A stretch of 44,021 nt of DNA from Escherichia phage BEK2-2. The DNA lies in the sequence record MN158213.1; one strand, 5' to 3'. The position numbers and the translations under genes are program-made. The notes under the pieces were generated by a model. It saw only the letters and a program-made list of their open reading frames with translations, was not told where the DNA came from and did not search any database. Shown piece after piece: positions 4,510 through 39,211 of this stretch; position 1 is the stretch's first letter; each line of letters begins with the position of its first letter.

Positions 4510-4511
4510 CC

Positions 4512-10462: not shown

Positions 10463-10542
10463 GGTATCATCTCCTATATTTGGTTGAGTTTTAGTATTAC
10501 ACCGCTCGATCAAGAATGCAACCAATTTACGAGGATTTAGCT

Positions 10543-13082: not shown

Positions 13083-13124
13083 TGTGAATCCCTCATTGAT
13101 GCGGGCCGAAGCCCGCGATTAGAA

Positions 13125-13646
13125 TTATTTCAGTGCACCAGTCACCAGTGTTTTTTCCATGTTGCGGAAGTCTTCCGGCGTCATGAGGATTTTGGATCCG
13201 TCTTCGCCGGTGAGCACGACCATAGGATGGACGTCCTGGGCTACGACGCCGAAATTGGCGGCTTTGACAGTCTTGCCCGCAGATGCCGAAGGATGCCACG
13301 CCCCAGCGGTGGCGATGGGACAACCTTTAAGGCTGTCGTATTGCGCTGCCGTTGTATCGATCTGAATCTCGTCATGCACGGTCATGTAAGACTCGCCCAG
13401 CAGGGCGGCATACGCTACCAGGTCGACGATATTGTCTTCCTGGTGCTTACGGTGCTGGCGCACCAGCTTCAGGCAGATCAAGAAGGTCCAGGCTTCTTGC
13501 TCGGTAAGGTCGCGACCGGTAAGCGCGTTAAACACGGCAGCGATCTGCTTAGCACTACGCTCCTCTTTCGCGTTGTCATAGCCGTTTTCTTTCCCGCGCT
13601 GTTCCATAGTGGTGGCGGCGTTTTTGCAGTATTCGTATGCTTTCAC
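13125..13646 (-). CDS. Hypothetical protein
   Basis: 173 aa ORF in the leftward operon; no confident family. Confidence 0.45.
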   Translation of the reverse strand: MKAYEYCKNAATTMEQRGKENGYDNAKEERSAKQIAAVFNALTGRDLTEQEAWTFLICLKLVRQHRKHQEDNIVDLVAYAALLGESYMTVHDEIQIDTTAAQYDSLKGCPIATAGAWHPSASAGKTVKAANFGVVAQDVHPMVVLTGEDGSKILMTPEDFRNMEKTLVTGALK

Positions 13647-13700
13647 AGTATTACCCTTTTAGCGAGGGGGCTGTATTGCCCCCGACACGTTTACTATAGT

Positions 13701-13722
13701 GCAACCAACCTATTGGTTGCAA
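13701..13722. promoter_or_regulatory. Perfect palindrome TGCAACCAA-N4-TTGGTTGCA (operator-like)
   Basis: Read directly; member of the recurrent TGCAACCAAT motif family. Confidence 0.5.
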
Positions 13723-14965: not shown

Positions 14966-15226
14966 TCAGCGCGCTTGCAATGCTCGCGCAGACCTTCGGC
15001 AGTGATGCGGTTTAGTGCAACGCTGGTTGTATAATCCGGTGCGCTGCATAATCCCCATCAATTCGAAAAGCAGTTCGAAGCGCTCCTCTAATTCCTTGCG
15101 CATCTTCTCCTCGCCTTCATAGCTTGCCAGGTAGGTATCAGCCAGCGCGTTCGCCCGTTCGGCTTGCTCTCGGGCTTCGAGGCATTGCGCGGCCCAGTAA
15201 TTTTTCTCTTCTTGTAAAATTTTCAT
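14966..15226 (-). CDS. Hypothetical coiled-coil protein
   Basis: Glu/Arg-rich helical ORF; true C-terminus uncertain. Confidence 0.35.
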   Translation of the reverse strand: MKILQEEKNYWAAQCLEAREQAERANALADTYLASYEGEEKMRKELEERFELLFELMGIMQRTGLYNQRCTKPHHCRRSARALQAR

Positions 15227-15307
15227 CGTGTTGTCTCCGGGTATTAAAAAGGGCGTCCAAACCGGACACCCTCAATATAATGCAACCAATCTAATTATGC
15301 AACCAAT

Positions 15308-15631: not shown

Positions 15632-16323
15632 TTTAAATTTTCCTCGTTAACCGCTATCGCGAAGCCGCGCGGAGTGAGCGACCGGATTAATTTTGTGCGG
15701 GCTGATTTGCCTCCGAGGCGACTATACTGCTTCGAGTACCCTTTTTCAACGAAAACGGGTTTCTTCTCTGGCATACGGAAGCCGTTGCCGGTCCATAAGC
15801 AGGTCAGCTTCGGATATGAATCGCGGGCGTTGATGTATTCCGGGAAGAGCGGGTGTACGTCATCCTCCGGCAGATATCCCCCATACTCCCACGGGTCGAA
15901 TGAGTGATCCGGTTTGCGCCACTGGGTGGATAGCACACTGCGCGGATTCTCAATCATATATGGCACTTCGAAGAAGTCACCCAGGTAAGCGGCGATCTTC
16001 GCGGTGCGCACCGCCTTAAGCTGAAAGGCTGGGTCTTTTGCACGCTTGCGCGGGAAAGCTGGCGCACCGCTCACTGCCAGATCCGTGCACGGAGGAAACG
16101 CATAGATGATATCTGGCGTACCGAAATCGCCATTCATCGCACGGTCTACAAAGTCCGGATCGATAAACTCATTGCGATAGCGGATTCCGCGACCATAAAT
16201 CCGGTAGTCAAGGTATGACCCGTGATCAGCTTCGGAGTAGTTGAAGCAATAACACTTATGCCCCATCTCGGCAGCACGCTCAATCATCAAGCCGCTGCCG
16301 TCAAACAATGACCAGATTATCAT
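15628..16323 (-). CDS. Short DNA cytosine-5 methyltransferase-like protein
   Basis: Motif I-like LFDGSG, motif IV-like FPPCTDLAVSG (catalytic Cys), motif VI-like IENP; only 231 aa, so the target-recognition region must be minimal. Confidence 0.5.
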   Translation of the reverse strand: MIIWSLFDGSGLMIERAAEMGHKCYCFNYSEADHGSYLDYRIYGRGIRYRNEFIDPDFVDRAMNGDFGTPDIIYAFPPCTDLAVSGAPAFPRKRAKDPAFQLKAVRTAKIAAYLGDFFEVPYMIENPRSVLSTQWRKPDHSFDPWEYGGYLPEDDVHPLFPEYINARDSYPKLTCLWTGNGFRMPEKKPVFVEKGYSKQYSRLGGKSARTKLIRSLTPRGFAIAVNEENLK

Positions 16324-17744: not shown

Positions 17745-17748
17745 ATCT

Positions 17749-17973
17749 TTATTCCGCCTTTTTCCAGACTTCGGTTTCACTGTTCCAATTCCTTTTTGTG
17801 GCGTCGTAGTTGGTGCGGTGCCCGATGTGCACACCCGTCGCCCGGAAGCTCTTAAATTTTTGCCAGCATACCGTCAACGGCAGCGGGTCATTCATGCCCG
17901 CGATAAACCATACGCGATCGCCCGGTTTACATTCGCCCAGCTTGGTGAGTCGGTAATGATCTTTCATCGTCAT
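17749..17973 (-). CDS. Hypothetical protein
   Basis: ORF between helicase and Zn-ribbon genes; start placed at MTMKDHY (ORF track extends to 17982). Confidence 0.4.
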   Translation of the reverse strand: MTMKDHYRLTKLGECKPGDRVWFIAGMNDPLPLTVCWQKFKSFRATGVHIGHRTNYDATKRNWNSETEVWKKAE

Positions 17974-18010
17974 GTCTCCCAAAAATGGCGGGACAAGCCC
18001 GCCGTATTAA

Positions 18011-18183
18011 TTATTTTTGCTCTGCGCGGTAGCGGCGCTGCCGTTCGCGCTCTTTTTTATTGCGGCACGATTTGCACTCGGCCCGATACCCGTCCGGGCT
18101 GCGTGCAGTCTTACCGGTGTATTTGTGGAACTGGGATAGCGGTTTAACGCAGCCGCAATTACTGCAACGTTTTTCTTCAATCA
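18011..18183 (-). CDS. Small zinc-ribbon protein (CxxC ... CxxC)
   Basis: MIEEKRCSNCGC...ECKSCRNKK; GAGGA site; start placed at MIEEK (ORF track extends to 18256). Confidence 0.45.
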
Positions 18184-18224
18184 TCTCTAAAATCCTCGAT
18201 ATGGCTAACCGGCACACTATACCG

Positions 18225-18503
18225 CTATGCGACCAATTCAGCAACCAATAAATCACAGTCGGCGATGTTGTCTATAACGCGAACGTCAGCGCCGCGGCGG
18301 GCCATCCGCTCATGTTCACGTACCTGGTGCGGCTTCGGTTTTCCTCCTGGGCGCTTCACTTCGACGAACACTATTTTGCCGTTGATGATGATAATCAGGT
18401 CGGGCGCACCTGCGCGCCCCTCCCAGGCCATTTTGCGGCAGAATCCGCCTACCTCTTTCACCCGTCGCATCAGGTGACTTTGAATCTTGCCTTCTGGTGT
18501 CAT
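18225..18503 (-). CDS. VRR-NUC domain nuclease
   Basis: GAPDLIIIINGKIVFVEVKRPG matches the VRR-NUC PD-(D/E)XK core; start overlaps the polymerase stop (TAATG). Confidence 0.75.
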   Translation of the reverse strand: MTPEGKIQSHLMRRVKEVGGFCRKMAWEGRAGAPDLIIIINGKIVFVEVKRPGGKPKPHQVREHERMARRGADVRVIDNIADCDLLVAELVA

Positions 18504-20794: not shown

Positions 20795-20964
20795 TGCTTA
20801 ATCCTCACTACGGCGTCGGCGCTGCCGATCATGGAGAAGATGCCGTCGGAAAGGGTTATCTCCTCGCCGTTGTTGCGAATCTCGGCAACGGTGAAATATT
20901 CCCCCAGCAATTTGGACCATACCTGCATTCCGACTTTTACTTCGCTGGCTTTAATGCGCATTTT
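20795..20964 (-). CDS. Small hypothetical protein (about 56 aa, below ORF-track cutoff)
   Basis: Hand-translated ORF MRIKASEVKVGMQVW... whose stop overlaps the polymerase start; weak ribosome-binding site. Confidence 0.25.
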
Positions 20965-20974
20965 TCATTGTCCT

Positions 20975-21008
20975 ATTAAAAAGCCCGCATTAAGCGGGCT
21001 TGAATAGT
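20975..21008 (-). terminator. Intrinsic terminator downstream of SSB-like gene
   Basis: On the - strand, hairpin agcccgcttaatgcgggct followed by TTTTT. Confidence 0.5.
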
Positions 21009-21019
21009 GGGCCTTGCCC

Positions 21020-21793
21020 TTAACGGCGGCGACGTTTGCGTGGTGCTTCGTCTTCGTCGTCGTCCTCATCATCTTCGTCATCGCGTGGCTTACGACGTTT
21101 ACGAGGTTTCTCATCTTCGTCGTCATCGTCATCGCGGCGCTTGGACTTTTTGGACTTGCGCGGCTTGTCGTCTTCGTCATCGCGGCGCTTGGACTTTTTG
21201 GACTTGCGCGGGCTTTCATCTTCGTCGTCGTTGTCCAGGTCTTCATCGGAGCACGAAGACCCGCCACCGAAGGCTTCACCGTCATCACGGAAGCGTAAAC
21301 CCAGCAGTCCAGCACCGAGTCCCTTGCCGTTGGTGTTGTTCCACGCCCAAATATCCAGTGACACATTGCAATAACAACCGGAGTAGATCTCCTTGCCTTC
21401 GATTTCGTCGCCTTCTACGGTCAGGCCCTGTTCGGTCTGCTTCTCGCCGAGTGACGTTTGGATGTTTGGCTGTTTGAACGATTTAGCGTTGATGTACAAC
21501 ATTCCTTCGAATTCTTCGGTTACTTCATCGCGCTCGTCGCCGTCGCGAACTGCACATTCCTTAGAATCCTGGGCGTAGTGGCGGTCCATCCACTTATCGG
21601 CATTCTTCTCGGATTTCAGCTTGTCGGTGAGCACTGCGCGCGCTGCCGCTTCCACTTTGTCCACCTGCGGATCTTCTTTATCAAGAAGAATCACGGCGCG
21701 GTATGCCGGTTTTTGTCCATCCTGTTTAGGGGTATCACGTTCCCAAATTTTCAGGAAACATACGCGCACATTTTTCAGGTTGACTTTAGCCAT
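21020..21793 (-). CDS. DUF2815-like single-stranded DNA-binding protein with highly charged repetitive C-terminal tail
   Basis: N-terminus MAKVNLKNVRVCFLKIWE typical of DUF2815; C-terminal DDEDDKPRKSKKSKRRDD repeats encoded by a tandem DNA repeat near 21100-21220. Confidence 0.6.
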   Translation of the reverse strand: MAKVNLKNVRVCFLKIWERDTPKQDGQKPAYRAVILLDKEDPQVDKVEAAARAVLTDKLKSEKNADKWMDRHYAQDSKECAVRDGDERDEVTEEFEGMLYINAKSFKQPNIQTSLGEKQTEQGLTVEGDEIEGKEIYSGCYCNVSLDIWAWNNTNGKGLGAGLLGLRFRDDGEAFGGGSSCSDEDLDNDDEDESPRKSKKSKRRDDEDDKPRKSKKSKRRDDDDDEDEKPRKRRKPRDDEDDEDDDEDEAPRKRRRR

Positions 21794-21883
21794 TTTCCAA
21801 TTCCTCATTTTCACATGTATCGGGGTTATTGGAAGCCACCCCGTTCGGCTTGGTTGCTAATTTACTTGGTTGCGCCTAAGCGG

Positions 21884-22126
21884 TCAAGCATTTTCACTAA
21901 AAAGATTTCTGGTAACGTAGTTGGTGGCGTTCTCGATCCAGCTTAGCGGCGGTCGGTCGATGTTCTTTTCCACCCAATCGACGGCAACTTCGCTATAGCC
22001 GTCATCCAGCCAGCGGGTCGGATGGCGAATCATCCACGCCACCATTAACACGCCTTGCACGCAATGCAGGATAAAGCCCAGCGCGCCGAGCAAAAACATC
22101 AATAAGATTGCAAATACTTTATTCAT
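21884..22126 (-). CDS. Small membrane protein
   Basis: Hydrophobic N-terminus MNKVFAILLMFLLGALGFIL; start overlaps the upstream nuclease gene end. Confidence 0.45.
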   Translation of the reverse strand: MNKVFAILLMFLLGALGFILHCVQGVLMVAWMIRHPTRWLDDGYSEVAVDWVEKNIDRPPLSWIENATNYVTRNLFSENA

Positions 22127-23549
22127 TGCTTAAGTCCTCGTCAGTAGCTTCCGACCACGCAGGGCGCGGGTCGTCGATCGGTGCTAACACCGGTTTAGCT
22201 GGCGCGCGTGTGATTTTATCACACAGCTTAGCCCACACTTTCGGTTTTTCGTCCTTCAGTACCTTCTCGGCATCCGTAGGGCTGAGCAATGTTTCTTTGT
22301 ACATCACATCGCGCTTGATCCGGGCCTTCGTGAAGATTTCAATAACTTCGCTCTCGTCCGCCCACTTACGGACCCCTTCCTTACCGGCAACCATCTTGAG
22401 GCCCAGCGATTCGCCATCGCCCGCCATTACCGCTTTGAATACCGCGGACTCGATAGCCTTGATGTGCTGGCGCATTGCGTCCAGGCCTTCATAAGCCTTG
22501 CGCAGTTCTGCGGCGGTCATAGCGCCGGGGGCCGCTTCTTTCTTGCCACGCTTCGCACGTCGGGCCGCCTTCCGGGCTTCGCGGGCCATATTGCGGTCGT
22601 GATTGGCGCATTCTTCCTCTGTCGCAATACTCACGTCGTCGCCCAGGTCTTCGTCTGTTGCCGTTGGCGGGGCCATCGTGTCGATTGCGGCCTTAGCGCG
22701 GGCGCTACACTGATCCGCAAATCTGCACCACTGACACGCATCAACGCTCGGTCGGAAGTCGGCACGGGTGAGTCCCTTTTTGCCGCGGGCGTACGCTTCC
22801 AGGGCGGCGATAGCACGCTTGGACGCAAACTTCGCGAATATCTCCAGGGCTTCTACCGAAATATCCCACTCCGACGCCCCGCCGCAATACGGCTGGAAGA
22901 TAACCAGGCGCACGGTCGTGATGTCGTACATGGATTGCAGCTTGCGCAGCAGGCCGAGCGCATACAGCATGAGCTGTTTGTTTTCTTTCGCCTCGACCTT
23001 ATGCCGCCCCGTCTTCAGGTCGCCAACAATCAGCATGTACGTGCCGTCGGTCTTCTTCATGACCATGACCATATCCGCAGTGCCGAACGTCTTAACCCGG
23101 TTGCCGTCGATCTCGAAGCCCGAGTGTAGGACGCGGGTGAGATCGGCGCGCATCTCAAGCTGAACAAACTCCGCCACTTCGAGGAGCGGTCGCCAGTGGT
23201 CGATGTACGCGTCGCACTGTTTCACCATGTCGTCGTTGACCAGTACGCCGCCTTTCGGCGCTTTCGGGTGCGCCTTTACCGGCCCCTTACCTTCGTTCTC
23301 GACGTAGCACCCTTTGTACGTTTTCGCGGTTATCAGCTTCTCACCGGCGATAATGCGGTTAAGCACGACTTCCGATACTGTGTGCATACTCGTACCGTTA
23401 ATAGCCGCTTGCCCGGATTCGTTCGGGATACCCTGTTCTACCACCAGGGCCGCGGGACACCCCATCCATTTTTTAGCACCGGATGGCCCGAGTAATGAAT
23501 GTTCCGTATTACTACCGGATTGTGTTTTGCGCTTCGGTTTAATCGCCAT
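22119..23549 (-). CDS. RecB/Cas4-like PD-(D/E)XK nuclease (DUF2800-like) with C-terminal cysteine cluster
   Basis: IVGDLKTG and QLMLYALGL (QxxxY) motifs plus CQWCRFADQC cluster; position upstream of SSB-like and polymerase genes. Confidence 0.65.
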   Translation of the reverse strand: MAIKPKRKTQSGSNTEHSLLGPSGAKKWMGCPAALVVEQGIPNESGQAAINGTSMHTVSEVVLNRIIAGEKLITAKTYKGCYVENEGKGPVKAHPKAPKGGVLVNDDMVKQCDAYIDHWRPLLEVAEFVQLEMRADLTRVLHSGFEIDGNRVKTFGTADMVMVMKKTDGTYMLIVGDLKTGRHKVEAKENKQLMLYALGLLRKLQSMYDITTVRLVIFQPYCGGASEWDISVEALEIFAKFASKRAIAALEAYARGKKGLTRADFRPSVDACQWCRFADQCSARAKAAIDTMAPPTATDEDLGDDVSIATEEECANHDRNMAREARKAARRAKRGKKEAAPGAMTAAELRKAYEGLDAMRQHIKAIESAVFKAVMAGDGESLGLKMVAGKEGVRKWADESEVIEIFTKARIKRDVMYKETLLSPTDAEKVLKDEKPKVWAKLCDKITRAPAKPVLAPIDDPRPAWSEATDEDLSNE

Positions 23550-23737
23550 TATTCCACCCTTGAAAATTGAGCAATGTAATAATCGTGTTCAACATTGGCC
23601 CGCTTCGCGGCATTGTTCATGGTAGCCGCCAGTCCTCGAGCTTGCGTCCAGCAGCAATTCCAGTTTTGATTCATAATAATTTCTGGTTGCTCGTCGCCGG
23701 TAATACGGCAACGAAATAAAACAAAGAAGATAGCCAT
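23549..23737 (-). CDS. Hypothetical small protein
   Basis: 62 aa ORF fitting the gap in the operon; no motif. Confidence 0.3.
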   Translation of the reverse strand: MAIFFVLFRCRITGDEQPEIIMNQNWNCCWTQARGLAATMNNAAKRANVEHDYYIAQFSRVE

Positions 23738-23989
23738 TTATTTTGTCTCCCAGCGGTCAATTGTTCTTGCTTCGGATGCAACTGCGAATCGAACATATTC
23801 CAGATTGGACTCCGCCCAAATATAAAAGTCGGGATTAGTAAAGGTGGTGCGCTTGATTTGCGCGGGTGTATTGCGGCGTTTATCTATTACGGCAACTCGC
23901 GACTGAAAGCTGCCGATGCGTTCGAATAGCCAATAGTAAGGGCGTTGGTCGCGTGAATCCACCGCCTCGATTAGCGTGAAGCGTGCCAT
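23738..23989 (-). CDS. Hypothetical protein
   Basis: 83 aa ORF in the leftward operon. Confidence 0.4.
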   Translation of the reverse strand: MARFTLIEAVDSRDQRPYYWLFERIGSFQSRVAVIDKRRNTPAQIKRTTFTNPDFYIWAESNLEYVRFAVASEARTIDRWETK

Positions 23990-23996
23990 TGTCTCG

Positions 23997-24032
23997 TCCT
24001 CTAAAAAGAGGCCCGCTAATCTGCGGGCCGGA
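23997..24032 (-). terminator. Intrinsic terminator or attenuator after the first leftward early gene
   Basis: On the - strand, hairpin ggcccgcagattagcgggcc followed by TCTTTTT. Confidence 0.5.
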
Positions 24033-24037
24033 ATATA

Positions 24038-24553
24038 TTAATCTTCCAGTTCGAAATAGGTTTCGACGATTTCTTTTAGCTCTTTGTGGAAGTCTTCGAC
24101 GTCGTCATCTTCCAGCTTGGCGATTGATTTGATCTCGAACGATTCCAGCAGGTCGTCGAATTCGTCGTTCGCGTCGTCGTCATCACCACCGGCAATAATA
24201 GCGGCATATTGTTTGATTTCGTCGCGCATCTCCGCCAGCGGATCGGCATCTTTCTTGCCTTTGCCTTTCGCCGGGGCTTTTTTAGATTTAGCCGGTTTTT
24301 CGTCTTCGGCATCATCGTCGTCGTCGTCATCTTCTACGACTTCTTTTTTGGCCTTACCCTTCGCCGGTGCTTTTTTAGCTTTAGCCGGTTTTTCGTCTTC
24401 GTCGTCGTCATCTTCGACAACTTCTTTTTTGGCCTTAGACGGCTTCTTGTCTTCCTGTTTACCAACGGCAGCGCCAACGGTTTCATAATGCTTTGCAATG
24501 GTTTCCAGTGCTACTACGCCGCGAGTGATCAGGTTTACGATTTGCTCAAACAT
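24038..24553 (-). CDS. Highly acidic Lys/Asp/Glu repeat protein, first gene of the leftward early operon (candidate DNA mimic)
   Basis: Start placed at MFEQIVN with GGAGA site (ORF track extends to 24733); two KKEVVEDDDD(E/D)DEKPAK(A/S)KKAPAKGK repeats from a tandem DNA repeat about 24230-24440. Confidence 0.6.
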   Translation of the reverse strand: MFEQIVNLITRGVVALETIAKHYETVGAAVGKQEDKKPSKAKKEVVEDDDDEDEKPAKAKKAPAKGKAKKEVVEDDDDDDDAEDEKPAKSKKAPAKGKGKKDADPLAEMRDEIKQYAAIIAGGDDDDANDEFDDLLESFEIKSIAKLEDDDVEDFHKELKEIVETYFELED

Positions 24554-24895
24554 GGTATATCTCCGATTGGTTAAGTTTAGGTGTCGGCAGTTAACTTCGT
24601 CGGTGGCCTTAACATATTGCCAGGTTACGCGTTCTCCCGTTCGGGTAGTGGACCTGGTTATATAATCACGGTTGGGAATCCTGACACTTCGATCCGGCCC
24701 CTGCGTTGCCCCTCTCCAGTTTGCGTCCTGCATCCTGTCGACGGAGTGAATGATAGATTGGTTGCAGGATGGGTGTCAACAACTAATTTCAAAAAAAAAG
24801 CGCCGAGGCAAAATGCGACGGCGCTAACCAATAAGAGACAATGAGACGGGAATTATTATTACACGCGTGCGCGCCCGTTTCAATATCCAAAGGAT

Positions 24896-24924
24896 TTGAC
24901 ACCGTGCAGTTTTGGGTGTAGTTT
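24896..24924 (+). promoter_or_regulatory. Putative sigma70-type promoter for the rightward early operon
   Basis: Perfect -35 TTGACA, 17 bp spacer, weak -10 TAGTTT, about 30 bp upstream of the 24956 gene. Confidence 0.3.
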
Positions 24925-24955
24925 CGTTGGTCATTAACCAACAGGAGACTGAATT

Positions 24956-25285
24956 ATGAATATCAAAGAAGCAATTGAAGTGTTATCTAATGCAATCCGC
25001 GGCGAAGCGGGTAAATCCTGGTATTACACAAATGCGGTGGATACTCTGTTATTTGAAGTGTCCAGATTATCGCGTGCTGAGAAGGAGCTTACCGCGAAGC
25101 TGGAATTGCTCAACGGCACGGCAGCAAGCAAGCTGCAAAAACACAATGAAGAAATGGAAGAATACAAAAAGCAGGTTATCCGTTTACGCAATGAGGGAAA
25201 GTCATGGGCAATGATCGCCGAGTTGACCGGAATTAATCAGAGCACAGTGCGCTCCTGGGTACGCAATAATAAAACTTCAAAGTAA
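24956..25285 (+). CDS. Putative HTH transcriptional regulator
   Basis: C-terminal helix-turn-helix-like segment SWAMIAELTGINQSTVRSWVRNN; first gene of the rightward early operon. Confidence 0.55.
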   Translation: MNIKEAIEVLSNAIRGEAGKSWYYTNAVDTLLFEVSRLSRAEKELTAKLELLNGTAASKLQKHNEEMEEYKKQVIRLRNEGKSWAMIAELTGINQSTVRSWVRNNKTSK

Positions 25286-25295: not shown

Positions 25296-27560
25296 ATGAG
25301 CTTGATTAAATTCGCTGTAACACGACCCGCTAAAAAAGGCGAAAAAGCCAGGGCGGAAAACTTCCAGATGAGTACCGAAGAGTTTTTCGAATTTATCAAT
25401 GATGCGAAAGAAATCTCCTCGGTGCATATCAACAAAACGGAAGATAAAGCGGAGTATGCGCGCCGCAAGCGTAAGGCTGATGGGATTGTGGCTTATACCA
25501 GTGACGGATTACGCCGCAAGACCAGTGCGGTGGACCGCTCGATCCTGTTCTTCGATATTGACCGTACCGACACCCGCACCCTACGCCGCTGCCGTAAGGC
25601 TTTCATCGACGCGGGGCTGGAGCACGTATTCCACACAACCACCGGCGACCGTCACCCGCTTAAGGGCGGAACGCGTTGCGCTCGCTTCCTGGTACTCACT
25701 GACAAGCCTGTACCGGCTGAAGACCTGGGCCGTGTCCAGTATGCGCTATTACACCAACTTGGCCTGTCAGATGTGGACTTCGACGATTGCACGAAAGACA
25801 CAAACCGCCTGATGTACCTGCCACACCAGCAGTCTGTTATTAAATGCCATTACGGAAAGCGCGCCCGTGTCCGTCGTCTGCTTCGCCTGGCCGATAAGCT
25901 GGGAATGGAAAAAGAGGAAGTACGACGAGAACTGACCCAGGGCGATAACGGCGTGGCGGACGGTATTCTGGATTGGTGCTTCCAGGCGGGATTCGAACCG
26001 CTGTCGTCCGGTCGTGGTTATGAAGTGCCATGCCCGAACGAACACCTGCACAGTGGTGAAGGGTCCACCGCTATCATGGTTAAGGATGGCGAGATCCGTT
26101 TCAAGTGTATGCACACCGGCAACGAGTGTTGCTCGGAGCTAAATAGACACCAGCACCTTGCGCTACGCCTCATCGGGATACCGGACCACCTGAACGTCGA
26201 ACCGCACAACATGTCACGTAAGCAAATCGCCGCCATCCTCCCAGGGCTGGACGACGAGGAAGTCGAATCCTTATATGAACATATTGTTGATGCGGTTGGC
26301 GACGGCGAAGAATACGGCGTGTGCACCGATGCGGATCTGGATAACGAGCCGGTTGCGCTGTTCAGTAAGCACGACCCGATTATCGAGGGGTTGGTTAACT
26401 TTAAATCAACCTGGTATATGGCGGGTGAGTCGAACATCGGTAAATCGTTCTACGTGCTGGGGCAAATGGGTGCGGTTGCCGCGGGGATTCCGTTCGGTGG
26501 CGCGAAGGTCGTCCAGTCTCATTGCTTCTATTTCGACGCGGAAGGTGGCGAAGCCTCCAACCAGCGTAAGGAAGCATTGCAGATTAAATATGAGCACGAC
26601 CTGGACAAGCTGCACATTATCGATCTGCAATCACGCGGCTGGGATATCACCAGCAAATCCGGCTTGCGTGAAGTTATCAGCTTCATCAACCGCACCGCTA
26701 ACGGCGAGCCGGTTGGCCTGGTGGCGTTCGACTCACTCAACCAGACTGTTGCGCTGCGGTCCGCCGATGCTAAACCGTTCGACGAGAACAACGCCAGCGA
26801 TATGGGTGAAGTGGTCAAGGCGCTGAAGGCCATTGCGGAAAATACAGGCGGCAGTGCGGGCGTCATCCACCACCCGGCGAAGGGTGCAAACGGCAGCAGA
26901 TCTCCCCGTGGGTCCGGCGCGCTGCATGGCGCTGTCGATTCTGCGTTCTTCCTGGAGCAACCGGACGACAATCAGCCGGGCCAATTGAACCTGTATCACG
27001 AAAAGGCACGTAACGGCATCAAGCAAGCGCCGCGCGGCTTCGTCCTGCTCAAGTGCAAGGTTAAGGTGGATCTCCGCAAGTCCGAAGCGTTCGAATCACA
27101 CCAGTCCACCAGCATCGGGCCTGACTTCGGCGACGTGGTTGCCGGTTGGGACGTCAAGCCAATTGCATCCACGCCACGCGACGAGACTCTTTATCTCGTA
27201 CCGGTCGCCCTGGCACCGTTCGCCATCGAACAGGCAAAGGCCGCGGGCAAGGCCGCAGTTAAGGATGAGAACGCCGCAGGACCGCGCAACGAAAAAGAGA
27301 AAGTTCTTTATGCGGCACTGGAAAAACTGATGGAAGATAACCCGGACCATACCGGATTCAGTAAATCGGCAATTGTCCGCCAGGCTGGACTTGCGAAAGG
27401 TGGCACATCGACGAAGGCAATAGACGATATGGTGGAGCGCGGCGTGCTCGGTTTTTATACAGATCCGCACACCGGGGCCATCTATGGGTCGTCGAATATC
27501 GTCATCAAAACGAATATACCCATCACGCTTTCTGCGACCGACGATGACCTGAAAGATTAA
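25296..27560 (+). CDS. DNA primase/helicase (prim-pol-like N-terminus plus RecA-fold helicase)
   Basis: N-terminal FFDIDR (DxD); C-terminal Walker A GESNIGKS and Walker B-like VGLVAFDSLNQ. Confidence 0.7.
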   Translation: MSLIKFAVTRPAKKGEKARAENFQMSTEEFFEFINDAKEISSVHINKTEDKAEYARRKRKADGIVAYTSDGLRRKTSAVDRSILFFDIDRTDTRTLRRCRKAFIDAGLEHVFHTTTGDRHPLKGGTRCARFLVLTDKPVPAEDLGRVQYALLHQLGLSDVDFDDCTKDTNRLMYLPHQQSVIKCHYGKRARVRRLLRLADKLGMEKEEVRRELTQGDNGVADGILDWCFQAGFEPLSSGRGYEVPCPNEHLHSGEGSTAIMVKDGEIRFKCMHTGNECCSELNRHQHLALRLIGIPDHLNVEPHNMSRKQIAAILPGLDDEEVESLYEHIVDAVGDGEEYGVCTDADLDNEPVALFSKHDPIIEGLVNFKSTWYMAGESNIGKSFYVLGQMGAVAAGIPFGGAKVVQSHCFYFDAEGGEASNQRKEALQIKYEHDLDKLHIIDLQSRGWDITSKSGLREVISFINRTANGEPVGLVAFDSLNQTVALRSADAKPFDENNASDMGEVVKALKAIAENTGGSAGVIHHPAKGANGSRSPRGSGALHGAVDSAFFLEQPDDNQPGQLNLYHEKARNGIKQAPRGFVLLKCKVKVDLRKSEAFESHQSTSIGPDFGDVVAGWDVKPIASTPRDETLYLVPVALAPFAIEQAKAAGKAAVKDENAAGPRNEKEKVLYAALEKLMEDNPDHTGFSKSAIVRQAGLAKGGTSTKAIDDMVERGVLGFYTDPHTGAIYGSSNIVIKTNIPITLSATDDDLKD

Positions 27561-27670
27561 ATCCAGCGCGCATTGGTTGCCGATATGGGGATTCCCATAT
27601 CGCTAAAAGGTTAAATCCTGCGCGCATTGGTTGCCATTTTTAGTGTTTTTATCCGGTCGTATTGGTTGCC
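27557..27670. repeat. Direct repeats ttaaatccWgcgcgcattggttgcc (two copies plus a third partial) flanking palindrome gatatggg-N-cccatatc
   Basis: Read directly, immediately after the primase/helicase stop codon. Confidence 0.6.
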
Positions 27671-27721
27671 GTGTAGTGTGAATACAGTGAATAGTTATGC
27701 AATAAAACTGCATAAACCAAA

Positions 27722-27828
27722 CGGGACAGAAAGCGGGACAAACATGGGGCGGGACAAAGCGGGACAGCACCCCCGTCCCGCCCCGGATGGCGCGGCCTGG
27801 CGGGGAGCGGGACAAGCGGGACAAACCC
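27722..27828. repeat. GGGACA iteron-like array, copy B
   Basis: Direct GGGACA units and palindrome GGGACAGCACCCCCGTCCC; homologous to copy A at 147-330. Confidence 0.7.
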
Positions 27829-27882
27829 CAGTCTTTCAGACTAGACGGGGGTCAATGGCCCCCCTCGTCTGAGACTGAATAA
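27829..27882. promoter_or_regulatory. Conserved 54 bp imperfect hairpin element, copy B
   Basis: Identical to 331-384. Confidence 0.6.
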
Positions 27883-28037
27883 AATCCGGAGATTGCAAAA
27901 CACACGGCAGCATGATACGAAGTGCGGTCGTCTACTAACTAGGCAACCAATGCGGGTTGTATTATGCTGAGTGAAAAATGCGGTTTGCAGCCACAGCAGA
28001 TAGCGATCAACTTTTTCATGCGCGTGATTAATATTGG

Positions 28038-28066
28038 TTGCGTCCACCCCGGCACCAGGCTATATT
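28038..28066 (+). promoter_or_regulatory. Putative promoter TTGCGT-N17-TATATT overlapping two ATTGGTTGC motifs
   Basis: Read directly; 28 bp upstream of the 28095 gene. Confidence 0.35.
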
Positions 28067-28094
28067 GGTTGCACACCAACATGAGGACTGAACA

Positions 28095-28409: not shown

Positions 28410-28679
28410 ATGGACCGCAGACGAGCTAAACGGCTTTCCTGGAGCATTACCCTGCATTGCATACGAATATGGGCTAAGAATGCGAATGAGGGCGATTCTG
28501 TGTTCTGGAGCTATCGCGACGATGTGAAGCCATTAACGCAGACTCGCTACTTGCACCAGTTCGCCAGGGAGCATGGGTTAGCCATAAAAACGTCCTTGCA
28601 ACCAATTGGCGTTCGTATTACATTACGCCGGAAGCCTGCCGTTGAGCGGGTAGGCAAACACTGGAGACTGAGCAAATGA
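28410..28679 (+). CDS. Hypothetical basic early protein
   Basis: ATG with AAGGGG site; tightly packed in the operon. Confidence 0.5.
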   Translation: MDRRRAKRLSWSITLHCIRIWAKNANEGDSVFWSYRDDVKPLTQTRYLHQFAREHGLAIKTSLQPIGVRITLRRKPAVERVGKHWRLSK

Positions 28680-31457: not shown

Positions 31458-31661
31458 GCTTGACTTGCAACCAACATAGACGCCATACTGCGACCAACCA
31501 ACGAGAGGAGTATTACACTATGGCACGTAATGATATTTGGGTATTGGCAATCTGGTCCACCGCAGCATTTATCGGTATGGTTATTTGCGAATTGCTATAA
31601 CCCGCCGCAATAGGGACCGTGGTATATTGTCCTCGGTACCATAATCTGGAAGTGAATTAAT

Positions 31662-32804
31662 ATGCACCCGCAAACTAAAATCACCGACGAGCAATTGATC
31701 GCCGAGTTGCAATCCGGCACTACCGCGAAAGAGATTGCGAAGAAGTACGGAATTGCTCTTCGAAATGTCTACATGCGCAAAGCCCGCCTGTCGAAGAAAG
31801 GTATTGGTCACGGTAATGATGCCGTAATTCGTAAGCGCGTTGCCGATGGCTTCGGCGTTAAACGCGTATCCGCCCTGGTGCGCGGAAATGGCGAAGAGGT
31901 CATGTCGTGGGTTATCACTGAGCAGGACAAAGAGCGCCAGCTTGAAGCAATGCGCGCCGTTGTCGAGGGTATGAACAGCGAAATCACACCGGCAGCGCCA
32001 GTAAGCGCCCCACCAGTCCCGATCCAGGCACTTGACCTACTCAACCTGTACACAGTGTCAGACTTCCACCTGGGCATGTTGGCATGGGGCGAGGAGACTG
32101 GCGAGGATTGGGATATGGCAATCGCCGAAGACCTGTTTTACCGCTGGTTTGTCGAAGCCTTCGCACGCGCACCGGACGCAGGCACTGCCGTAATTAATAT
32201 CCTCGGTGATATGGCCCACTTTGACAGCCTTGATGCCGTCACTCCAGCCAGCGGTCACGTACTGGACGCGGATACCCGCTACCAGAAGCTGGTCCGCTAC
32301 ATGATCCGCATGGTGCGCAACGTGGTGGAACTGGCGCTGCAAAAACACCACAAAGTCAAACTGCTAATCGTCCAGGGGAACCATGACGAGTCGGGTATGA
32401 TTTGGCTGGCTGAAATGTTCAATACCCTGTACGAGAACGAGCCGCGCGTCGATGTGGACACGTCCCCGGACGTATACAAGATGGTGCAGCACGGCAAGAC
32501 CACGCTGTTCTTCCACCACGGGCACAAAGCGCGCTTCGATGCTATCGAAACCGTCATGATTTCTAAATTCAGACAGGCTTTCGGGGCCAGCGAGTACAGC
32601 TACGCGCATATAGGCCACTTGCACCACCAGAAGATTGTAGAATCCCGCAACATGATTGTTGAGCAGCACCGGACACTCGCAGCGAAAGACGCCTACGCCA
32701 GTCGTGGCGGTTGGATGAGCGGTCGCAGCGCAAACGTCATCACCTATAGCGCCAACTACGGAGAAGTAGCGCGCTTAACCATTAGCCCGGAAATGTTGAA
32801 GTAA
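31662..32804 (+). CDS. N-terminal HTH fused to calcineurin-like metallophosphoesterase domain
   Basis: Five metallophosphoesterase motifs in order: SDFHLG (DxH), ILGDMAHFD (GDxxD), VQGNHDE (GNHD/E), FFHHGH, HIGHLHH (GHxH); N-terminal segment TAKEIAKKYGIALRNVYMRKARL is HTH-like. Confidence 0.6.
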   Translation: MHPQTKITDEQLIAELQSGTTAKEIAKKYGIALRNVYMRKARLSKKGIGHGNDAVIRKRVADGFGVKRVSALVRGNGEEVMSWVITEQDKERQLEAMRAVVEGMNSEITPAAPVSAPPVPIQALDLLNLYTVSDFHLGMLAWGEETGEDWDMAIAEDLFYRWFVEAFARAPDAGTAVINILGDMAHFDSLDAVTPASGHVLDADTRYQKLVRYMIRMVRNVVELALQKHHKVKLLIVQGNHDESGMIWLAEMFNTLYENEPRVDVDTSPDVYKMVQHGKTTLFFHHGHKARFDAIETVMISKFRQAFGASEYSYAHIGHLHHQKIVESRNMIVEQHRTLAAKDAYASRGGWMSGRSANVITYSANYGEVARLTISPEMLK

Positions 32805-37937: not shown

Positions 37938-38702
37938 TTAGCGCGGAATACCGCAGATTTCGTTTAACGTCTTCACATCCAGCGCCACCGCCGTGGATTT
38001 AGGCTTGTCCTGGTATGGAATGAATTGCTCAACTTCAGGCCATGCCTTAATCAGCTTCTTGTCAGTATTGTGCAGGTCCAGCACACCGGTAACGGTGAGT
38101 TTGAACGCATCATACTTCGCGCGCAACTCGCGACGGGCCTTGTCGTTGCGGTCCAGGCGCTTACAGAAGTCATGGTCCGCCGGGTAGTCTACGCGACCGC
38201 GTGGCATATATATCGGCAGCGCTTTTCCGTCATCGTCCAATTCGCACACTGACGCTAACAAAATTTCCTCATACCCTGGCACAATATCGCCGAGATCGGG
38301 AGACAGCTTATTCATGTATTTATATTCCCAGTATCCGCGATGTACTCGGAATCGGTGTCCGTCTCCGCTCAATGACACGGTACGGACGTTTCCGCCGGCG
38401 TTGATTTCGAAAGTGGCATCATAAACGCGGCCGATACCATACGGGCGGTCAGCGTTATAACTATACGTCGCCTTGTTGGTGTATACGCTTACTCCGTACA
38501 TCTGCGACGGGTCATCGCAGATTGCTTTAATGCGCGCGAGTAGCTCGGCGAAAGTGCGAATGCCTTCCGGCATACAGTCCAGCGTAATGGCGTACGCCAG
38601 GTCGCGCGAGTCCATCATGATGGATTTGGCTTCGGTCGCGATTTCGTGGTCGCGCAGGATGTTAGCCAGAATCTGGTTTTTAATGTCTTTCGTCAGTCTC
38701 AT
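37938..38702 (-). CDS. Hypothetical protein, reverse-oriented accessory gene inside the head module
   Basis: 254 aa ORF on the opposite strand to all flanking structural genes; no recognisable motif. Confidence 0.55.
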   Translation of the reverse strand: MRLTKDIKNQILANILRDHEIATEAKSIMMDSRDLAYAITLDCMPEGIRTFAELLARIKAICDDPSQMYGVSVYTNKATYSYNADRPYGIGRVYDATFEINAGGNVRTVSLSGDGHRFRVHRGYWEYKYMNKLSPDLGDIVPGYEEILLASVCELDDDGKALPIYMPRGRVDYPADHDFCKRLDRNDKARRELRAKYDAFKLTVTGVLDLHNTDKKLIKAWPEVEQFIPYQDKPKSTAVALDVKTLNEICGIPR

Positions 38703-39077: not shown

Positions 39078-39120
39078 GTCGGTGTGCAACCAATATATTG
39101 CAACCAATACACGGATTGCA
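39078..39120. promoter_or_regulatory. Divergent control region with two TGCAACCAAT motifs
   Basis: gtgTGCAACCAATatatTGCAACCAATacacggattgcaagc read directly between the reverse cassette and the scaffold gene. Confidence 0.45.
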
Positions 39121-39211
39121 AGCTAATTTTGCGATTATTTTTATCACTGATAATATTAGAGGCGTGAAGTCGAGCGGGTGGCCCGCTCTGCCACAATCCC
39201 AGGGGGATAGC

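What the first reader, a model, noticed from the sequence alone, without database searches (positions are those of the whole stretch)
39078..39120. Recurrent TGCAACCAAT motif in at least ten intergenic regions, often as paired direct repeats or a palindrome
The 10-mer TGCAACCAAT (or its complement ATTGGTTGCA) occurs almost only in intergenic DNA: 10514-10523, 13701-13722 (perfect palindrome with 4 bp spacer), 15283-15308 (two copies), 18229-18249 (two degenerate copies), 21856-21878 (two copies), 24764-24773, 27572-27670 (three copies), 27943-27952, 28034-28076 (two copies), 31470-31495 (two copies) and 39081-39106 (two copies). Pairs are typically spaced 15-17 bp centre to centre, and copies in the ATTGGTTGCA orientation are often preceded by TAAAT or TATAT, so the motif may be part of an extended -10/start region or an operator for a phage-encoded regulator. 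Either way it marks a phage-specific transcription control code across early, replication and structural operons.
Basis: seen in the sequence. Interest (0 to 1): 0.55.

Follow-up and report, generated by a model that had tools for sequence, protein, structure and literature searches.

The report
Promoter-overlapping operator motif of Dhillonvirus phages
A 10-base DNA word, TGCAACCAAT, occurs about twenty times in this lytic E. coli phage genome, almost always on top of its promoters or beside its likely replication origin, and is most probably the docking site of a small phage-encoded DNA-binding regulator; this is a real and conserved control element of a familiar kind, and I found no description of it for this phage group.

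Summary
TGCAACCAAT occurs 9 times exactly (0.07 expected). The core GCAACCAA occurs 20 times (2.2 expected), and 18 of 26 GCRACCAA hits lie in the 7.9% of the genome that is intergenic.

The window is a near-complete Dhillonvirus (HK578/SO-1-like lytic siphophage). Every relative examined keeps 19-23 core copies. They are invariant islands in variable intergenic DNA, and this holds even in four lineages only ~71-72% identical.

18 of 21 copies lie inside sigma70-like core promoters, at recurring positions (over the -35, in the spacer abutting the -10, or over the start site) and in either orientation. That is operator-like geometry, not a promoter element in its own right and not an RNA signal. 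Further copies flank an iteron array next to the helicase-primase gene.

The best candidate binder is the 109-aa HTH protein (24956-25285). Its HTH half is nearly invariant across the clade while its N-terminal half is hypervariable, and in three diverged lineages its own promoter carries a copy at +3..+10. The 380-aa HTH-phosphoesterase is disfavoured.

Caveat: Serratia phage Otaku has the same motif enriched but no detectable homologue of the 109-aa protein. The binder and the sign of regulation remain inferred.

Verdict: a new member of a known kind, of moderate interest.

The parts
10517..10526 (+). Motif copy A (TGCAACCAAT). It lies in the 80-bp divergent gap between a leftward lipoprotein-like gene and the lateral tail-fibre gene (ATG at 10543).
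   Evidence: Invariant in 8 genomes, and LM40P1 gained a second copy here. No >=8/12 promoter window was found here.
13700..13721 (.). Motif pair B, an inverted pair (TGCAACCAA-CCTA-TTGGTTGCA). It covers the -35 and spacer of the minus-strand promoter-like site TTGCAA-18-TATAGT (13722..13693), upstream of the DUF6378 gene (13607..13125).
   Evidence: cores at -34..-27 and -22..-15.
15281..15307 (+). Motif pair C, direct repeats spaced 17 nt. It lies over the -35 and spacer of the minus-strand TTGCAT-17-TATATT site (15302..15274), between the HNH gene and the next leftward gene.
   Evidence: cores at -39..-32 and -22..-15.
18228..18249 (+). Motif pair D (TGCGACCAAT, AGCAACCAAT; spaced 12 nt). 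It overlaps the last codons of the VRR-NUC gene and lies over the -35/spacer of the minus-strand TTGCTG-17-TATAGT site (18244..18216), upstream of gene 18184..18011.
   Evidence: Otaku has a copy at the homologous promoter.
21849..21874 (-). Motif pair E (spaced 16 nt), in the spacer and over the start of the minus-strand TTGACC-17-TAAATT site (21887..21859), upstream of the SSB-like gene.
   Evidence: cores at -21..-14 and -5..+2. Same geometry in L188, L194 and L219.
24757..24766 (-). Motif copy F, in the spacer of the near-consensus minus-strand promoter TTGACA-18-TATCAT (24779..24750). This promoter heads the leftward replication-gene block.
   Evidence: 11/12 match; core at -22..-15. Same position in L192 and L194.
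27572..27670 (-). Three 'origin-type' copies (GGCAACCAAT at 27572-81, 27626-35, 27661-70) immediately after the helicase-primase stop codon, on the left flank of the iteron array.
   Evidence: Position 0 is G in origin-type copies in all Dhillon-like lineages.
27942..27951 (+). Origin-type copy (GGCAACCAAT) on the right flank of the iteron array, inverted relative to the three left-flank copies.
   Evidence: inverted repeats I1-I3.
28033..28073 (-). Motif pair H (spaced 31 nt), over the -35 and the -10/start of the plus-strand TTGCGT-17-TATATT site (28038-28066), upstream of the gene at 28095.
   Evidence: cores at -39..-32 and -8..-1.
28597..28606 (+). Motif copy K, inside the coding region 28410-28679. 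It overlaps the -35 of a possible internal promoter TTGCAA-17-TACATT.
   Evidence: Invariant amid a variable upstream flank in 8 genomes. (core at -33..-26).
31466..31498 (+). Motif pair I (TGCAACCAAC, TGCGACCAAC; spaced 23 nt), abutting the -35 and over the start of the plus-strand TTGACT-18-CATACT site (31460-31489). It follows a terminator and lies upstream of the 380-aa gene and the terminase operon.
   Evidence: cores at -29..-22 and -6..+1. Same TTGACG-T-GCAACCAAT arrangement in L188, L192 and L219.
39085..39108 (+). It lies in the divergent gap between the Nmad5-domain gene (leftward) and the scaffold/major-capsid genes (rightward), in the spacer and over the start of the minus-strand TTGCAA-18-TATATT site (39121..39092).
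   Evidence: cores at -22..-15 and -8..-1. Conserved in the diverged contig L062.
24956..25285 (+). Gene for the 109-aa HTH protein ('HTH109'), the best candidate binder and the first gene of the rightward operon with helicase-primase. Its N-terminal half is hypervariable. Its C-terminal ~60 residues, with a LuxR/sigma-region-4/resolvase-like HTH, are nearly invariant.
   Evidence: Pfam HTH_23, Sigma70_r4_2 and HTH_28 at residues 65-106. Alignments. AF2 model pLDDT 87. Fold hits. The family is confined to this clade.
24896..24942 (+). Promoter-like site TTGACA-17-TAGTTT (24896-24924) for the HTH109/helicase-primase operon, followed by a degenerate inverted pair GTTGGTcattaACCAAC. In L188, L192 and L194 the equivalent promoter has a true GCAACCAAT exactly 9 nt after the -10.
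   Evidence: Sequence read. (core at +3..+10 in three lineages).
27716..27826 (+). Context: an iteron array of (A/G)GCGGGACA(A/G), at least 6 copies. It is duplicated at 147-325 (8 copies). This is a probable origin/crr-like element and is a repeat family distinct from the motif.
   Evidence: The iteron sequence differs by lineage while the motif does not.

Best explanation
TGCAACCAAT is a double-stranded-DNA binding site (an operator) for a phage-encoded regulator. It is placed once or twice on the core of about ten sigma70-type phage promoters and on both flanks of the iteron-type origin region.

The most likely binder is the 109-aa protein encoded at 24956-25285. It has a long helical N-terminal part, which may serve dimerisation or partner contacts, tethered to a small LuxR/sigma-region-4-like HTH. 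Each HTH would read one asymmetric 10-bp site. Flexible tethering would explain why copies work singly, as direct pairs 12-31 nt apart, or as an inverted pair.

The copies sit over the -35, in the spacer against the -10, or over the start site. Bound protein should therefore mostly exclude host RNA polymerase, giving timed repression or tuning of the replication, lysis/late and structural operons. In diverged relatives it should also repress its own operon. Activation at the weaker promoters cannot be excluded.

Shown: the enrichment, the conservation, the promoter geometry, and the co-distribution of the motif with the HTH domain within the clade.

Inferred: the identity of the binder, the sign of regulation, and that the predicted promoters are real.
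For: 1. Real and selected. 9 exact copies against 0.07 expected, and core 20 against 2.2. 18/26 hits lie in the 7.9% intergenic DNA. There are 19-23 core copies in each of 7 other Dhillonvirus genomes. Motif columns are 100% identical at 9 of 11 loci, against 72-93% for neighbouring columns. GCAACCAA is the top intergenic 8-mer in an unbiased count in the diverged L219.

2. Operator geometry. 18/21 cores fall within >=8/12 sigma70-like promoter windows, against 6.2+-2.1 (maximum 12) for random intergenic positions. They take recurring positions (-39..-32, -22..-15, -8..+2), with both orientations at the same position. The same geometry appears in lineages ~72% identical. Orientation is not tied to the direction of transcription, which argues for a DNA-level rather than an RNA-level signal.

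3. Binder.
- HTH109 has a bona fide HTH (fold hits to SdiA/RhlR/NarL/GerE, resolvase and IS-transposase HTHs with probability ~0.9).
- Its C-terminal ~60 residues are nearly invariant while its N-terminus is replaced many times. This parallels the invariant motif.
- Every lineage with a family member has the motif (Dhillonvirus, CHD5UKE2 type, L188, L192, L194, L219).
- The family exists nowhere else: 24 clusters in 5.8e9 proteins, and 3 full-length representatives in 1.84e9.
- Its own operon's promoter has a copy at +3..+10 in three lineages.

4. Rival binders fit less well.
- The 380-aa family lacks any association with the motif, and the gene is absent from L188, L192 and L219.
- The helicase-primase C-terminal winged-helix-like domain is only 50-59% conserved among lineages that share the identical motif.
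- A separate iteron family, which changes by lineage, is the more natural target for the helicase-primase.
Against: - No binding, TSS or expression data exist for this phage group. Promoters are consensus matches only, and overall counts of such matches are no higher than in shuffles.
- The motif itself supplies a TTGCAn '-35-like' hexamer at five loci, so the promoter overlap is partly circular.
- All co-occurrence of HTH109 with the motif lies within one clade, so it could reflect common descent alone.
- Serratia phage Otaku has tGCAACCAAc enriched (9 against 0.57 expected), including at a homologous promoter and next to its helicase-primase. No HTH109 homologue is detectable there, even at relaxed thresholds.
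- Salmonella phage STP-1, which also lacks HTH109, has a variant (GCAGCCAACAT) flanking its iterons. This suggests the origin-flanking copies predate HTH109 or are read by something else.
- The HTH109 and helicase-primase genes share one operon, so the autoregulatory site does not discriminate between them.
- A pure repressor acting on both replication and late promoters does not by itself explain late gene expression.
Confidence: 0.55

Rival explanations
1. The motif is an origin-associated site read by the replication machinery, namely the C-terminal winged-helix-like domain of the 754-aa helicase-primase. It would resemble DnaA boxes or P4 alpha iterons (known systems, recalled from memory). 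Copies at promoters would couple transcription to the replication protein.
For: - Six copies flank the iteron array directly downstream of the helicase-primase gene, in inverted orientation.
- Otaku has four copies at the 3' end of its helicase-primase gene, and STP-1 has three copies of a variant flanking its iterons. Both phages have the helicase-primase but not HTH109.
- The promoter of the HTH109/helicase-primase operon carries a copy in three lineages.
- The protein ends in a helix-turn-helix-plus-wing-like segment (read from the sequence, not modelled).
Against: - That C-terminal domain is the least conserved part of the protein (50-59% identity), with different putative recognition helices in lineages sharing the identical 10-mer.
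- Otaku's domain resembles STP-1's more than Dhillonvirus's, although Otaku shares the Dhillonvirus motif.
- A second, lineage-specific repeat family (GCGGGACA / GGTGCCA / TTCCGCACA / GGGGAGA) occupies the classical iteron position.
- Most copies sit on core promoters, not at the origin.
Confidence: 0.17
2. The motif is read by a host component: either a conserved enterobacterial DNA-binding protein, or RNA polymerase holoenzyme itself, acting as a specialised promoter sub-element (variant -35, spacer or discriminator).
For: - The motif is unchanged across phages whose proteins have diverged to 40-80% identity. It recurs in Otaku (Serratia host) without HTH109.
- It contains TTGCAn/TTGCAA hexamers that can serve as a -35, and it often directly follows a -10 (TATAAT-GCAACCAAT, TATAGT-GCAACCAAC).
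- The half-site ACCAAT resembles the PdhR box half-site (recalled from memory, not tested).
Against: - Copies occupy at least three different promoter positions, in both orientations. This is incompatible with a single RNAP-contact element.
- Paired copies are essentially confined to Dhillonvirus-like contigs among 2.9 million viral contigs. Other hits are 9-bp-period coding repeats or isolated pairs. Broad exploitation of a host factor would be expected to show elsewhere.
- No known E. coli factor with this asymmetric 10-mer comes to mind, and the PdhR box arrangement (ATTGGT-N3-ACCAAT) is not what is conserved here.
Confidence: 0.13
3. The binder is the 380-aa N-terminal-HTH/metallophosphoesterase protein (31662-32804; SO-1 gp58, annotated 'putative transcriptional regulator').
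For: - It has an N-terminal HTH-like segment (alignment).
- Motif pair I lies on the promoter upstream of its gene.
- An unrelated phage lineage (L013/L016/L056), recovered by the paired motif alone, encodes a 34%-identical homologue ~270 bp away.
Against: - 72 non-Dhillonvirus loci encoding closer homologues (42-55% identity; 0.94 Mb) have the core at background frequency, 0.39 against ~0.31 per 10 kb.
- In the L013/L016 lineage the pair is a single local occurrence (2 copies in 21 kb; relatives have 0-1). About one chance hit is expected for that pattern in a collection of this size (my estimate).
- L188, L192 and L219 keep the motif but have no homologue in 17-20 kb that includes the syntenic lysozyme-to-terS slot.
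- PHROG labels it a DNA repair exonuclease family.
Confidence: 0.03
4. The motif acts in RNA, for example as a 5'-leader signal for processing, antitermination or translation.
For: Several copies would be transcribed near the 5' end of mRNAs (E, H, I, J at about -8..+2; P_R in relatives at +3..+10) and lie 17-25 nt upstream of start codons (A, H).
Against: Roughly half the copies are antisense to the local direction of transcription. Many lie upstream of the predicted start, over the -35 or the spacer. There is no conserved structure around them and no information outside the 10-mer.
Confidence: 0.02

Closest known systems
Dispersed asymmetric operators of the phage P1 C1 repressor (recalled from memory)
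   Same: A single phage-encoded regulator is proposed to read an asymmetric site. The site is scattered over the whole genome, single or paired in various orientations, and usually overlaps promoters of many operons.
   Different: P1 is temperate and C1 is its immunity repressor, with 17-bp sites. Here the phage is strictly lytic by gene content, with no integrase or CI-like repressor seen in the annotations. The site is 10 bp. The candidate protein is a 109-aa LuxR/sigma4-like HTH unrelated to C1. Binding is untested.
Mycobacteriophage L5 gp71 'stoperators' (recalled from memory)
   Same: About 20-30 copies of a short asymmetric site lie in short intergenic gaps throughout the genome, and are thought to be bound by a monomeric HTH protein.
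   Different: Stoperators are oriented consistently with respect to transcription and act by blocking elongation. Here orientation is mixed and the copies sit on core promoters rather than within transcription units.
Lambdoid Cro/CI operators with an adjacent replication module (established knowledge)
   Same: A small HTH gene is the first gene of a rightward early operon that continues into the replication genes, with sites overlapping -35/-10 elements and apparent autoregulation.
   Different: Lambdoid operators are palindromic 17-mers clustered at two promoters. Here the site is an asymmetric 10-mer at ~10 promoters plus the origin flanks. HTH109 is not a Cro/CI-type HTH by Pfam, whereas Otaku and STP-1 carry Cro/C1-type HTH genes at this position.
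T4 MotA box of middle promoters (recalled from memory)
   Same: A ~9-bp asymmetric phage-specific word is associated with sigma70-type -10 elements across many operons of a lytic phage. HTH109 also scores against sigma70 region 4 models.
   Different: The MotA box has a fixed position (about -30) and a fixed orientation, and it replaces the -35. Here position and orientation vary, and several motif-bearing promoters have good -35 hexamers (TTGACA, TTGACC, TTGACT).
DnaA boxes and NarL heptamers (recalled from memory): short asymmetric sites used both in clusters and singly at promoters
   Same: A 9-10 bp asymmetric site has flexible spacing and orientation. It is clustered beside an origin-like iteron region and also placed singly or in pairs at promoters. 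The HTH109 fold resembles NarL/GerE-type HTHs.
   Different: There is no sequence relationship to either site. The candidate binder is a phage protein restricted to one clade.

Membership tests
Operator regulon of a phage-encoded HTH regulator | Short specific DNA word, statistically over-represented and concentrated in non-coding DNA | tested here: met
   9 against 0.07, 20 against 2.2, and 18/26 in the 7.9% intergenic DNA.
Operator regulon of a phage-encoded HTH regulator | Sites conserved against diverging flanks in related genomes | tested here: met
   (100% identity at 9/11 loci). (retained at ~71-72% nt identity).
Operator regulon of a phage-encoded HTH regulator | Sites overlap core promoter elements | tested here: met
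   18/21 against 6.2+-2.1 for random intergenic positions. The promoters are consensus predictions only, and the test is partly circular because the motif contains TTGCAn.
Operator regulon of a phage-encoded HTH regulator | A cognate DNA-binding protein encoded by the phage and co-distributed with the site | tested here: inconclusive
   The HTH109 C-terminal HTH is co-distributed with the motif in all Dhillon-like lineages. But Otaku has the motif without a detectable homologue.
Operator regulon of a phage-encoded HTH regulator | Demonstrated sequence-specific binding and an effect on transcription | not testable with these tools
   Needs EMSA/footprinting, ChIP or DAP-seq, and reporter assays.
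Intrinsic sigma70 promoter element (-35, extended -10, discriminator) | Fixed position and orientation relative to the -10 hexamer / TSS | tested here: not met
   at least three position classes, and both orientations occur at -22..-15.
T4 MotA-box-type activator promoters | Box centred near -30 in one orientation, replacing a -35 hexamer | tested here: not met
   variable position, and good -35 hexamers at F, E and I.
L5-type stoperators | Orientation of sites correlated with the direction of transcription | tested here: not met
   copies are 'same' at E, F, I and K, 'opposite' at C, D, H and J, and both at B.
Origin iterons of a primase-helicase initiator (P4 alpha-like) | Closely spaced, mostly direct repeats clustered at the origin and co-varying with the initiator | tested here: not met
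   That description fits the separate GCGGGACA family. TGCAACCAAT only flanks that array, is invariant while the iterons change by lineage, and is mostly located at promoters.
LuxR/GerE / sigma-70 region 4 / resolvase-type small HTH (protein HTH109) | Helix-turn-helix detectable by profile and by fold | tested here: met
   Pfam HTH_23 27.8 bits (cut-off 24.6), Sigma70_r4_2 27.6 (25.7), HTH_28 26.1 (25). The AF2 model (pLDDT 87) has helices at 84-91 and 95-107. Foldseek top hits are RhlR, SdiA, LiaR, NarL, IstA and Tn3 resolvase HTHs with probability ~0.9, but E ~1 because the domain is only ~35 residues. Subfamily is not resolved.

The most novel reading that the evidence does not exclude
A strictly lytic siphophage clade runs nearly its whole transcription programme, and marks its replication origin, with one 10-bp word. 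That word is read by a single tiny regulator whose DNA-reading half is frozen while its other half is swapped freely between strains. The hypervariable N-terminal module would be a plug-in that couples the fixed genome-wide switch to changing host partners, or lets it escape host defences that sense it. On this reading the protein is an evolutionary hotspot of phage-host conflict and not a housekeeping repressor.
Probability: 0.2. Interest if true: 0.6.

Novelty: new member of a known kind. Interest (0 to 1): 0.4.

Why it matters
Dhillonvirus phages (HK578, SO-1, SECphi4, several BASEL phages) are widely used in phage-defence and therapy work. Even so, I found no description of their transcription programme in the searchable literature.

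This motif gives a concrete map to test. It points to about ten candidate promoters with defined operator positions, a candidate regulator, and a candidate origin. It also offers parts for engineering: promoters that should respond to one small protein.

The kind of element, dispersed operators for a phage HTH protein, is well known, so the result fills a gap without overturning anything.

Tried and rejected
1. 380-aa HTH-phosphoesterase as binder.
- It was prompted by three non-Dhillonvirus contigs with a motif pair next to a 34% homologue.
- It was rejected for three reasons. The family is widespread without the motif. That lineage has only one local pair. The gene is missing from motif-bearing L188, L192 and L219.

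2. Motif as a -35 surrogate. I looked for a -10 at 16-18 nt downstream of the reverse-orientation TTGCAn. This holds at only some loci (C, D, H and weakly A; reading), so it is not general.

3. Sigma54 (-24/-12) reading of TTGG...TTGCA. The GG-to-GC spacings in single or paired copies do not fit the canonical spacing (reading of the sequence against remembered consensus).

4. Inverted half-site model (TTGGT-N5-ACCAA), seen at H, J and the P_R leader. The matrix shows no information at the upstream half-site positions.

5. Otaku gp37 (108 aa, C-terminal HTH) as a diverged HTH109. BLASTP finds no alignment, the HMM finds nothing, and Pfam gives only a sub-threshold HTH_38 match.

6. Rfam and tRNA scans of the window found nothing at gathering thresholds.

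7. PDB sequence hit 8vd6 'CAP REPEAT'. It is a designed consensus HTH-like repeat and is uninformative.

8. Literature searches found nothing relevant. I searched for the motif string, Dhillonvirus promoters and transcriptomics, and SO-1/HK578 papers.

9. The other over-represented 8-mers (ACGGCAAC/GTTGCCGT) are scattered in coding DNA and are not part of this element.
Full report
**What the window is**

Megablast places the 44-kb window at 91-95% identity, over nearly its full length, with complete genomes of Dhillonvirus phages (HK578/SO-1-like lytic E. coli siphophages such as Gluttony_ev152, EC115 and TheodorHerzl). I projected the TheodorHerzl annotation onto the window, which gives this map:
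- a rightward structural block (tape measure to J, 448-9279);
- a tail-fibre region;
- a leftward block of replication and modification genes (12507-24934);
- a rightward block starting with a 109-aa HTH gene (24956-25285) and a 754-aa helicase-primase (25296-27560), followed by small genes, lysis genes, a 380-aa gene, terminase, portal and head genes.

**Check of the observation**

TGCAACCAAT occurs 9 times exactly, against 0.07 expected from dinucleotide shuffles. With one mismatch there are 19 hits against 3.2 expected. The core GCAACCAA occurs 20 times against 2.18 expected. On my gene map, 18 of 26 GCRACCAA hits fall in the 7.9% of the sequence that is intergenic (binomial ~1e-14).

The palindrome at 13700-13721 is real, with 9-bp arms and a 4-bp spacer. 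Pair spacings are 12-31 nt, not 15-17. A weight matrix from 21 sites gives t-GCAACCAA-t with almost no information outside it.

**Conservation**

Seven other Dhillonvirus genomes each hold 19-23 core copies. In alignments of the eleven motif-bearing loci across eight genomes, the motif columns are 100% identical at nine loci, while the other columns are 72-93% identical. The two exceptions are copy-number or replacement indels. The coding copy at 28597 is equally invariant beside a highly variable flank.

Four more distant lineages keep the motif at the homologous places. These come from metagenomes (L188/L062, L192, L194, L219), with ~71-72% nucleotide identity and proteins 40-85% identical. 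In L219 an unbiased count makes GCAACCAA the most frequent intergenic 8-mer.

**Anatomy**

A consensus scan and my own scan (at least 8 of 12 hexamer matches, spacer 16-18) place 18 of 21 cores inside a sigma70-like window from the -35 to +5. Random intergenic positions give 6.2+-2.1, with a maximum of 12.

The positions recur:
- -39..-32, over the -35 (C, D, H);
- -34..-26 (B, K);
- -22..-15, in the spacer against the -10, at five promoters (B, C, E, F, J);
- -8..+2 (E, H, I, J).

Promoter F is near-consensus (TTGACA-18-TATCAT, 11/12). It heads the leftward replication block after a terminator. Both motif orientations occur at the same promoter position. About half the copies are antisense to local transcription. 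This argues for a duplex-DNA protein site rather than an RNA signal or a fixed RNA-polymerase contact.

The same geometry is seen in the diverged lineages, for example TTGACG-N8-GCAACCAAT-c-TAATAT.

Three caveats apply. These are consensus matches, and overall counts of such matches are no higher than in shuffles. No TSS data exist. At five loci the motif itself supplies a TTGCAn hexamer.

**Origin region**

Between the helicase-primase gene and the next operon (27561-28094) lie three copies in one orientation, an array of at least six (A/G)GCGGGACA(A/G) iterons, and then a copy in the opposite orientation. The iteron array is duplicated at 147-325. These correspond to 'regions A and B' of the SO-1 GenBank record.

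Origin-type copies have G before the core (GGCAACCAAT) in all lineages. The iteron word differs by lineage: GCGGGACA in the window and L188, GGTGCCA in L192/L194/L219, TTCCGCACA in Otaku, and GGGGAGA in STP-1. TGCAACCAAT does not change.

**Who reads it: the 109-aa protein**

- It has a C-terminal HTH above Pfam thresholds for HTH_23, Sigma70_r4_2 and HTH_28.
- Its model has pLDDT 87 and shows a long helix followed by two short helices.
- The best fold matches are LuxR/NarL/GerE, resolvase and IS-transposase HTHs. Probabilities are ~0.9, but E-values are not significant for so small a domain.
- Across the family, the N-terminal ~45 residues exist in many unrelated versions. The C-terminal ~60 residues are nearly invariant.
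- The most remote member (P0025, 39% identical overall) keeps the pattern I-N-x-S-T-(V/I)-(R/K)-x-W, and its phage keeps the motif.
- The family is confined to this clade: 24 clusters among 5.8 billion proteins, and three full-length representatives among 1.84 billion.
- In L188, L192 and L194 the promoter of its own operon has a copy at +3..+10. The window has only a degenerate inverted pair there.

**Who reads it: the 380-aa protein**

This protein has an N-terminal HTH-like segment. A paired-motif scan of viral contigs recovered an unrelated lineage with a homologue 270 bp from the pair. However:
- 72 other loci with closer homologues show only background motif frequency;
- that lineage has just the one pair;
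- L188, L192 and L219 lack the gene yet keep the motif.

**Who reads it: the helicase-primase**

It ends in a winged-helix-like segment. That segment is the least conserved part of the protein among lineages sharing the identical motif, and the lineage-specific iterons are its more natural target. This last point is inference.

**The main counter-evidence**

Serratia phage Otaku (helicase-primase 46% identical) has GCAACCAAC 9 times against 0.57 expected. The copies include a promoter homologous to locus D, the divergent early region, and the 3' end of its helicase-primase gene. No relative of the 109-aa protein is detectable there.

Salmonella phage STP-1 has only three copies of a variant (GCAGCCAACAT), all flanking its iterons.

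So the origin-flanking role may be older than the promoter role. In those phages something else must read the word: another phage protein, the helicase-primase, or a host factor.

**Mechanism proposed**

A phage-encoded regulator, most likely the 109-aa protein, binds each 10-mer through one HTH. Copies on the -35, spacer or start site would occlude RNA polymerase. This would give timed repression or tuning of the replication, lysis/late and structural operons, with feedback on its own operon in some lineages. The origin-flanking copies may link this to replication.

The sign of regulation is inferred from geometry only. Activation at the weaker promoters is possible. A pure repressor leaves late expression unexplained.

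**Comparison with known systems (from memory unless a call is cited)**

The element works like the dispersed asymmetric operators of P1 C1 or L5 gp71, and like DnaA boxes in combining an origin cluster with promoter sites. It fails three specific tests: the orientation rule of stoperators, the fixed -30 position of T4 MotA boxes, and the clustered, initiator-covarying character of iterons.

No paper in the searchable library mentions the motif or any promoter analysis for this genus.

**Verdict**

The finding is real, strongly conserved, and functionally interpretable as an operator code. The kind is familiar, and this instance is, as far as I can tell, undescribed. Binder identity and regulatory sign need experiments.

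**Side finding**

The ~115-nt stretch 24594-24709 (minus strand) lies between promoter F and the first leftward gene. It is a covariation-supported structured RNA candidate shared with unrelated enterobacterial phages and has no match in Rfam 15.

Noticed in passing
window 24594-24709, minus strand (leader between promoter F at 24779..24750 and the gene starting at 24553): Candidate structured RNA with no match in Rfam 15. Its invariant core is GGAGAGGRGCAACGCAGGGGCYTGATCGWAGTGTCAGGATTCCCAACCGTGA, followed by helices that change sequence but stay paired. It occurs in unannotated ~250-nt gaps of unrelated phages: Drexlerviridae Motto, tunus and KMI8, Jilinvirus Arya, Serratia MQ-4, and E. coli BUCT618. 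RNAalifold gives 29 pairs, 8 of them with compensatory double changes. 97.7% of cells are paired, against 23-48% in slid controls, and 0/500 shuffles do as well. The exact 22-nt core is found in 18 viral contigs. There is no Rfam or literature hit. In the window an ORF (24733..24038) reads through it, so a coding role is not formally excluded..
   Followed up: partly
window 147-325 and 27716-27826: Two duplicated arrays of (A/G)GCGGGACA(A/G) iterons (8 and at least 6 copies), each followed by the same conserved hairpin segment. This is a P4 ori/crr-like arrangement (comparison from memory) and a probable replication origin. The iteron word differs by lineage (GGTGCCA, TTCCGCACA, GGGGAGA). The small ORF annotated over the second array in relatives (window 27687-27872) is probably spurious..
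   Followed up: partly
window 24956-25100 (N-terminal half of the 109-aa HTH protein): The N-terminal ~45 residues are hypervariable. At least six unrelated versions exist, including a 149-aa form in CHD5UKE2, all fused to a nearly invariant C-terminal 60 residues. This suggests module swapping or diversifying selection..
   Followed up: partly
L006 (Serratia phage Otaku) 15262, 15283, 24856, 24931, 26646-26767, 29422, 35895; L007 (Salmonella phage STP-1) 13125, 13186, 13453: Otaku has tGCAACCAAc enriched (9 against 0.57 expected) without any homologue of the 109-aa protein. STP-1 has a variant, GCAGCCAACAT, only on the flanks of its iterons. What reads these is unexplained..
   Followed up: partly
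window, dispersed (e.g. 3231, 5463, 7499, 8722, 18898, 23705, 41630): The 8-mer ACGGCAAC/GTTGCCGT occurs 25 times (about 2 expected) and CAACGGCA 20 times. Nearly all are in coding DNA, with 18 of 25 on the plus strand. STP-1 shows a similar excess of TGTTGCCG/TTGCCGAT. The cause is unknown; codon or peptide bias, or a strand-biased signal, are possibilities..
   Followed up: no
window 37938-38702, minus strand: A 254-aa protein matches Pfam Nmad5 (nucleotide modification associated domain 5) at E = 3e-55. It occupies a slot where some relatives carry a 'DNA polymerase III beta subunit' moron, and it is expressed leftward from the motif-bearing gap J..
   Followed up: no
L013 5617-5639, L016 5591-5613, L056 7806-7828 (IMG/VR contigs 3300032240_002239, 3300023179_000138, 3300032247_000443): An unrelated phage lineage has one exact TGCAACCAAT pair (spaced 14 nt, as at 39085-39108). 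The pair lies ~60-85 bp upstream of a small acidic-protein gene and 270 bp from a homologue of the window's 380-aa protein. It is a single local occurrence and is probably coincidental..
   Followed up: yes
window 13655-13675, 15250-15272, 21815-21840, 39165-39185: Several motif-bearing promoters are followed directly by a G+C-rich stem-loop before the ribosome-binding site. This forms a promoter / 5' hairpin / RBS module, and at 15250-15272 the hairpin looks like a terminator placed just after the promoter. Possible roles are mRNA stabilisation or attenuation. Read from the sequences; coordinates are approximate.
   Followed up: no
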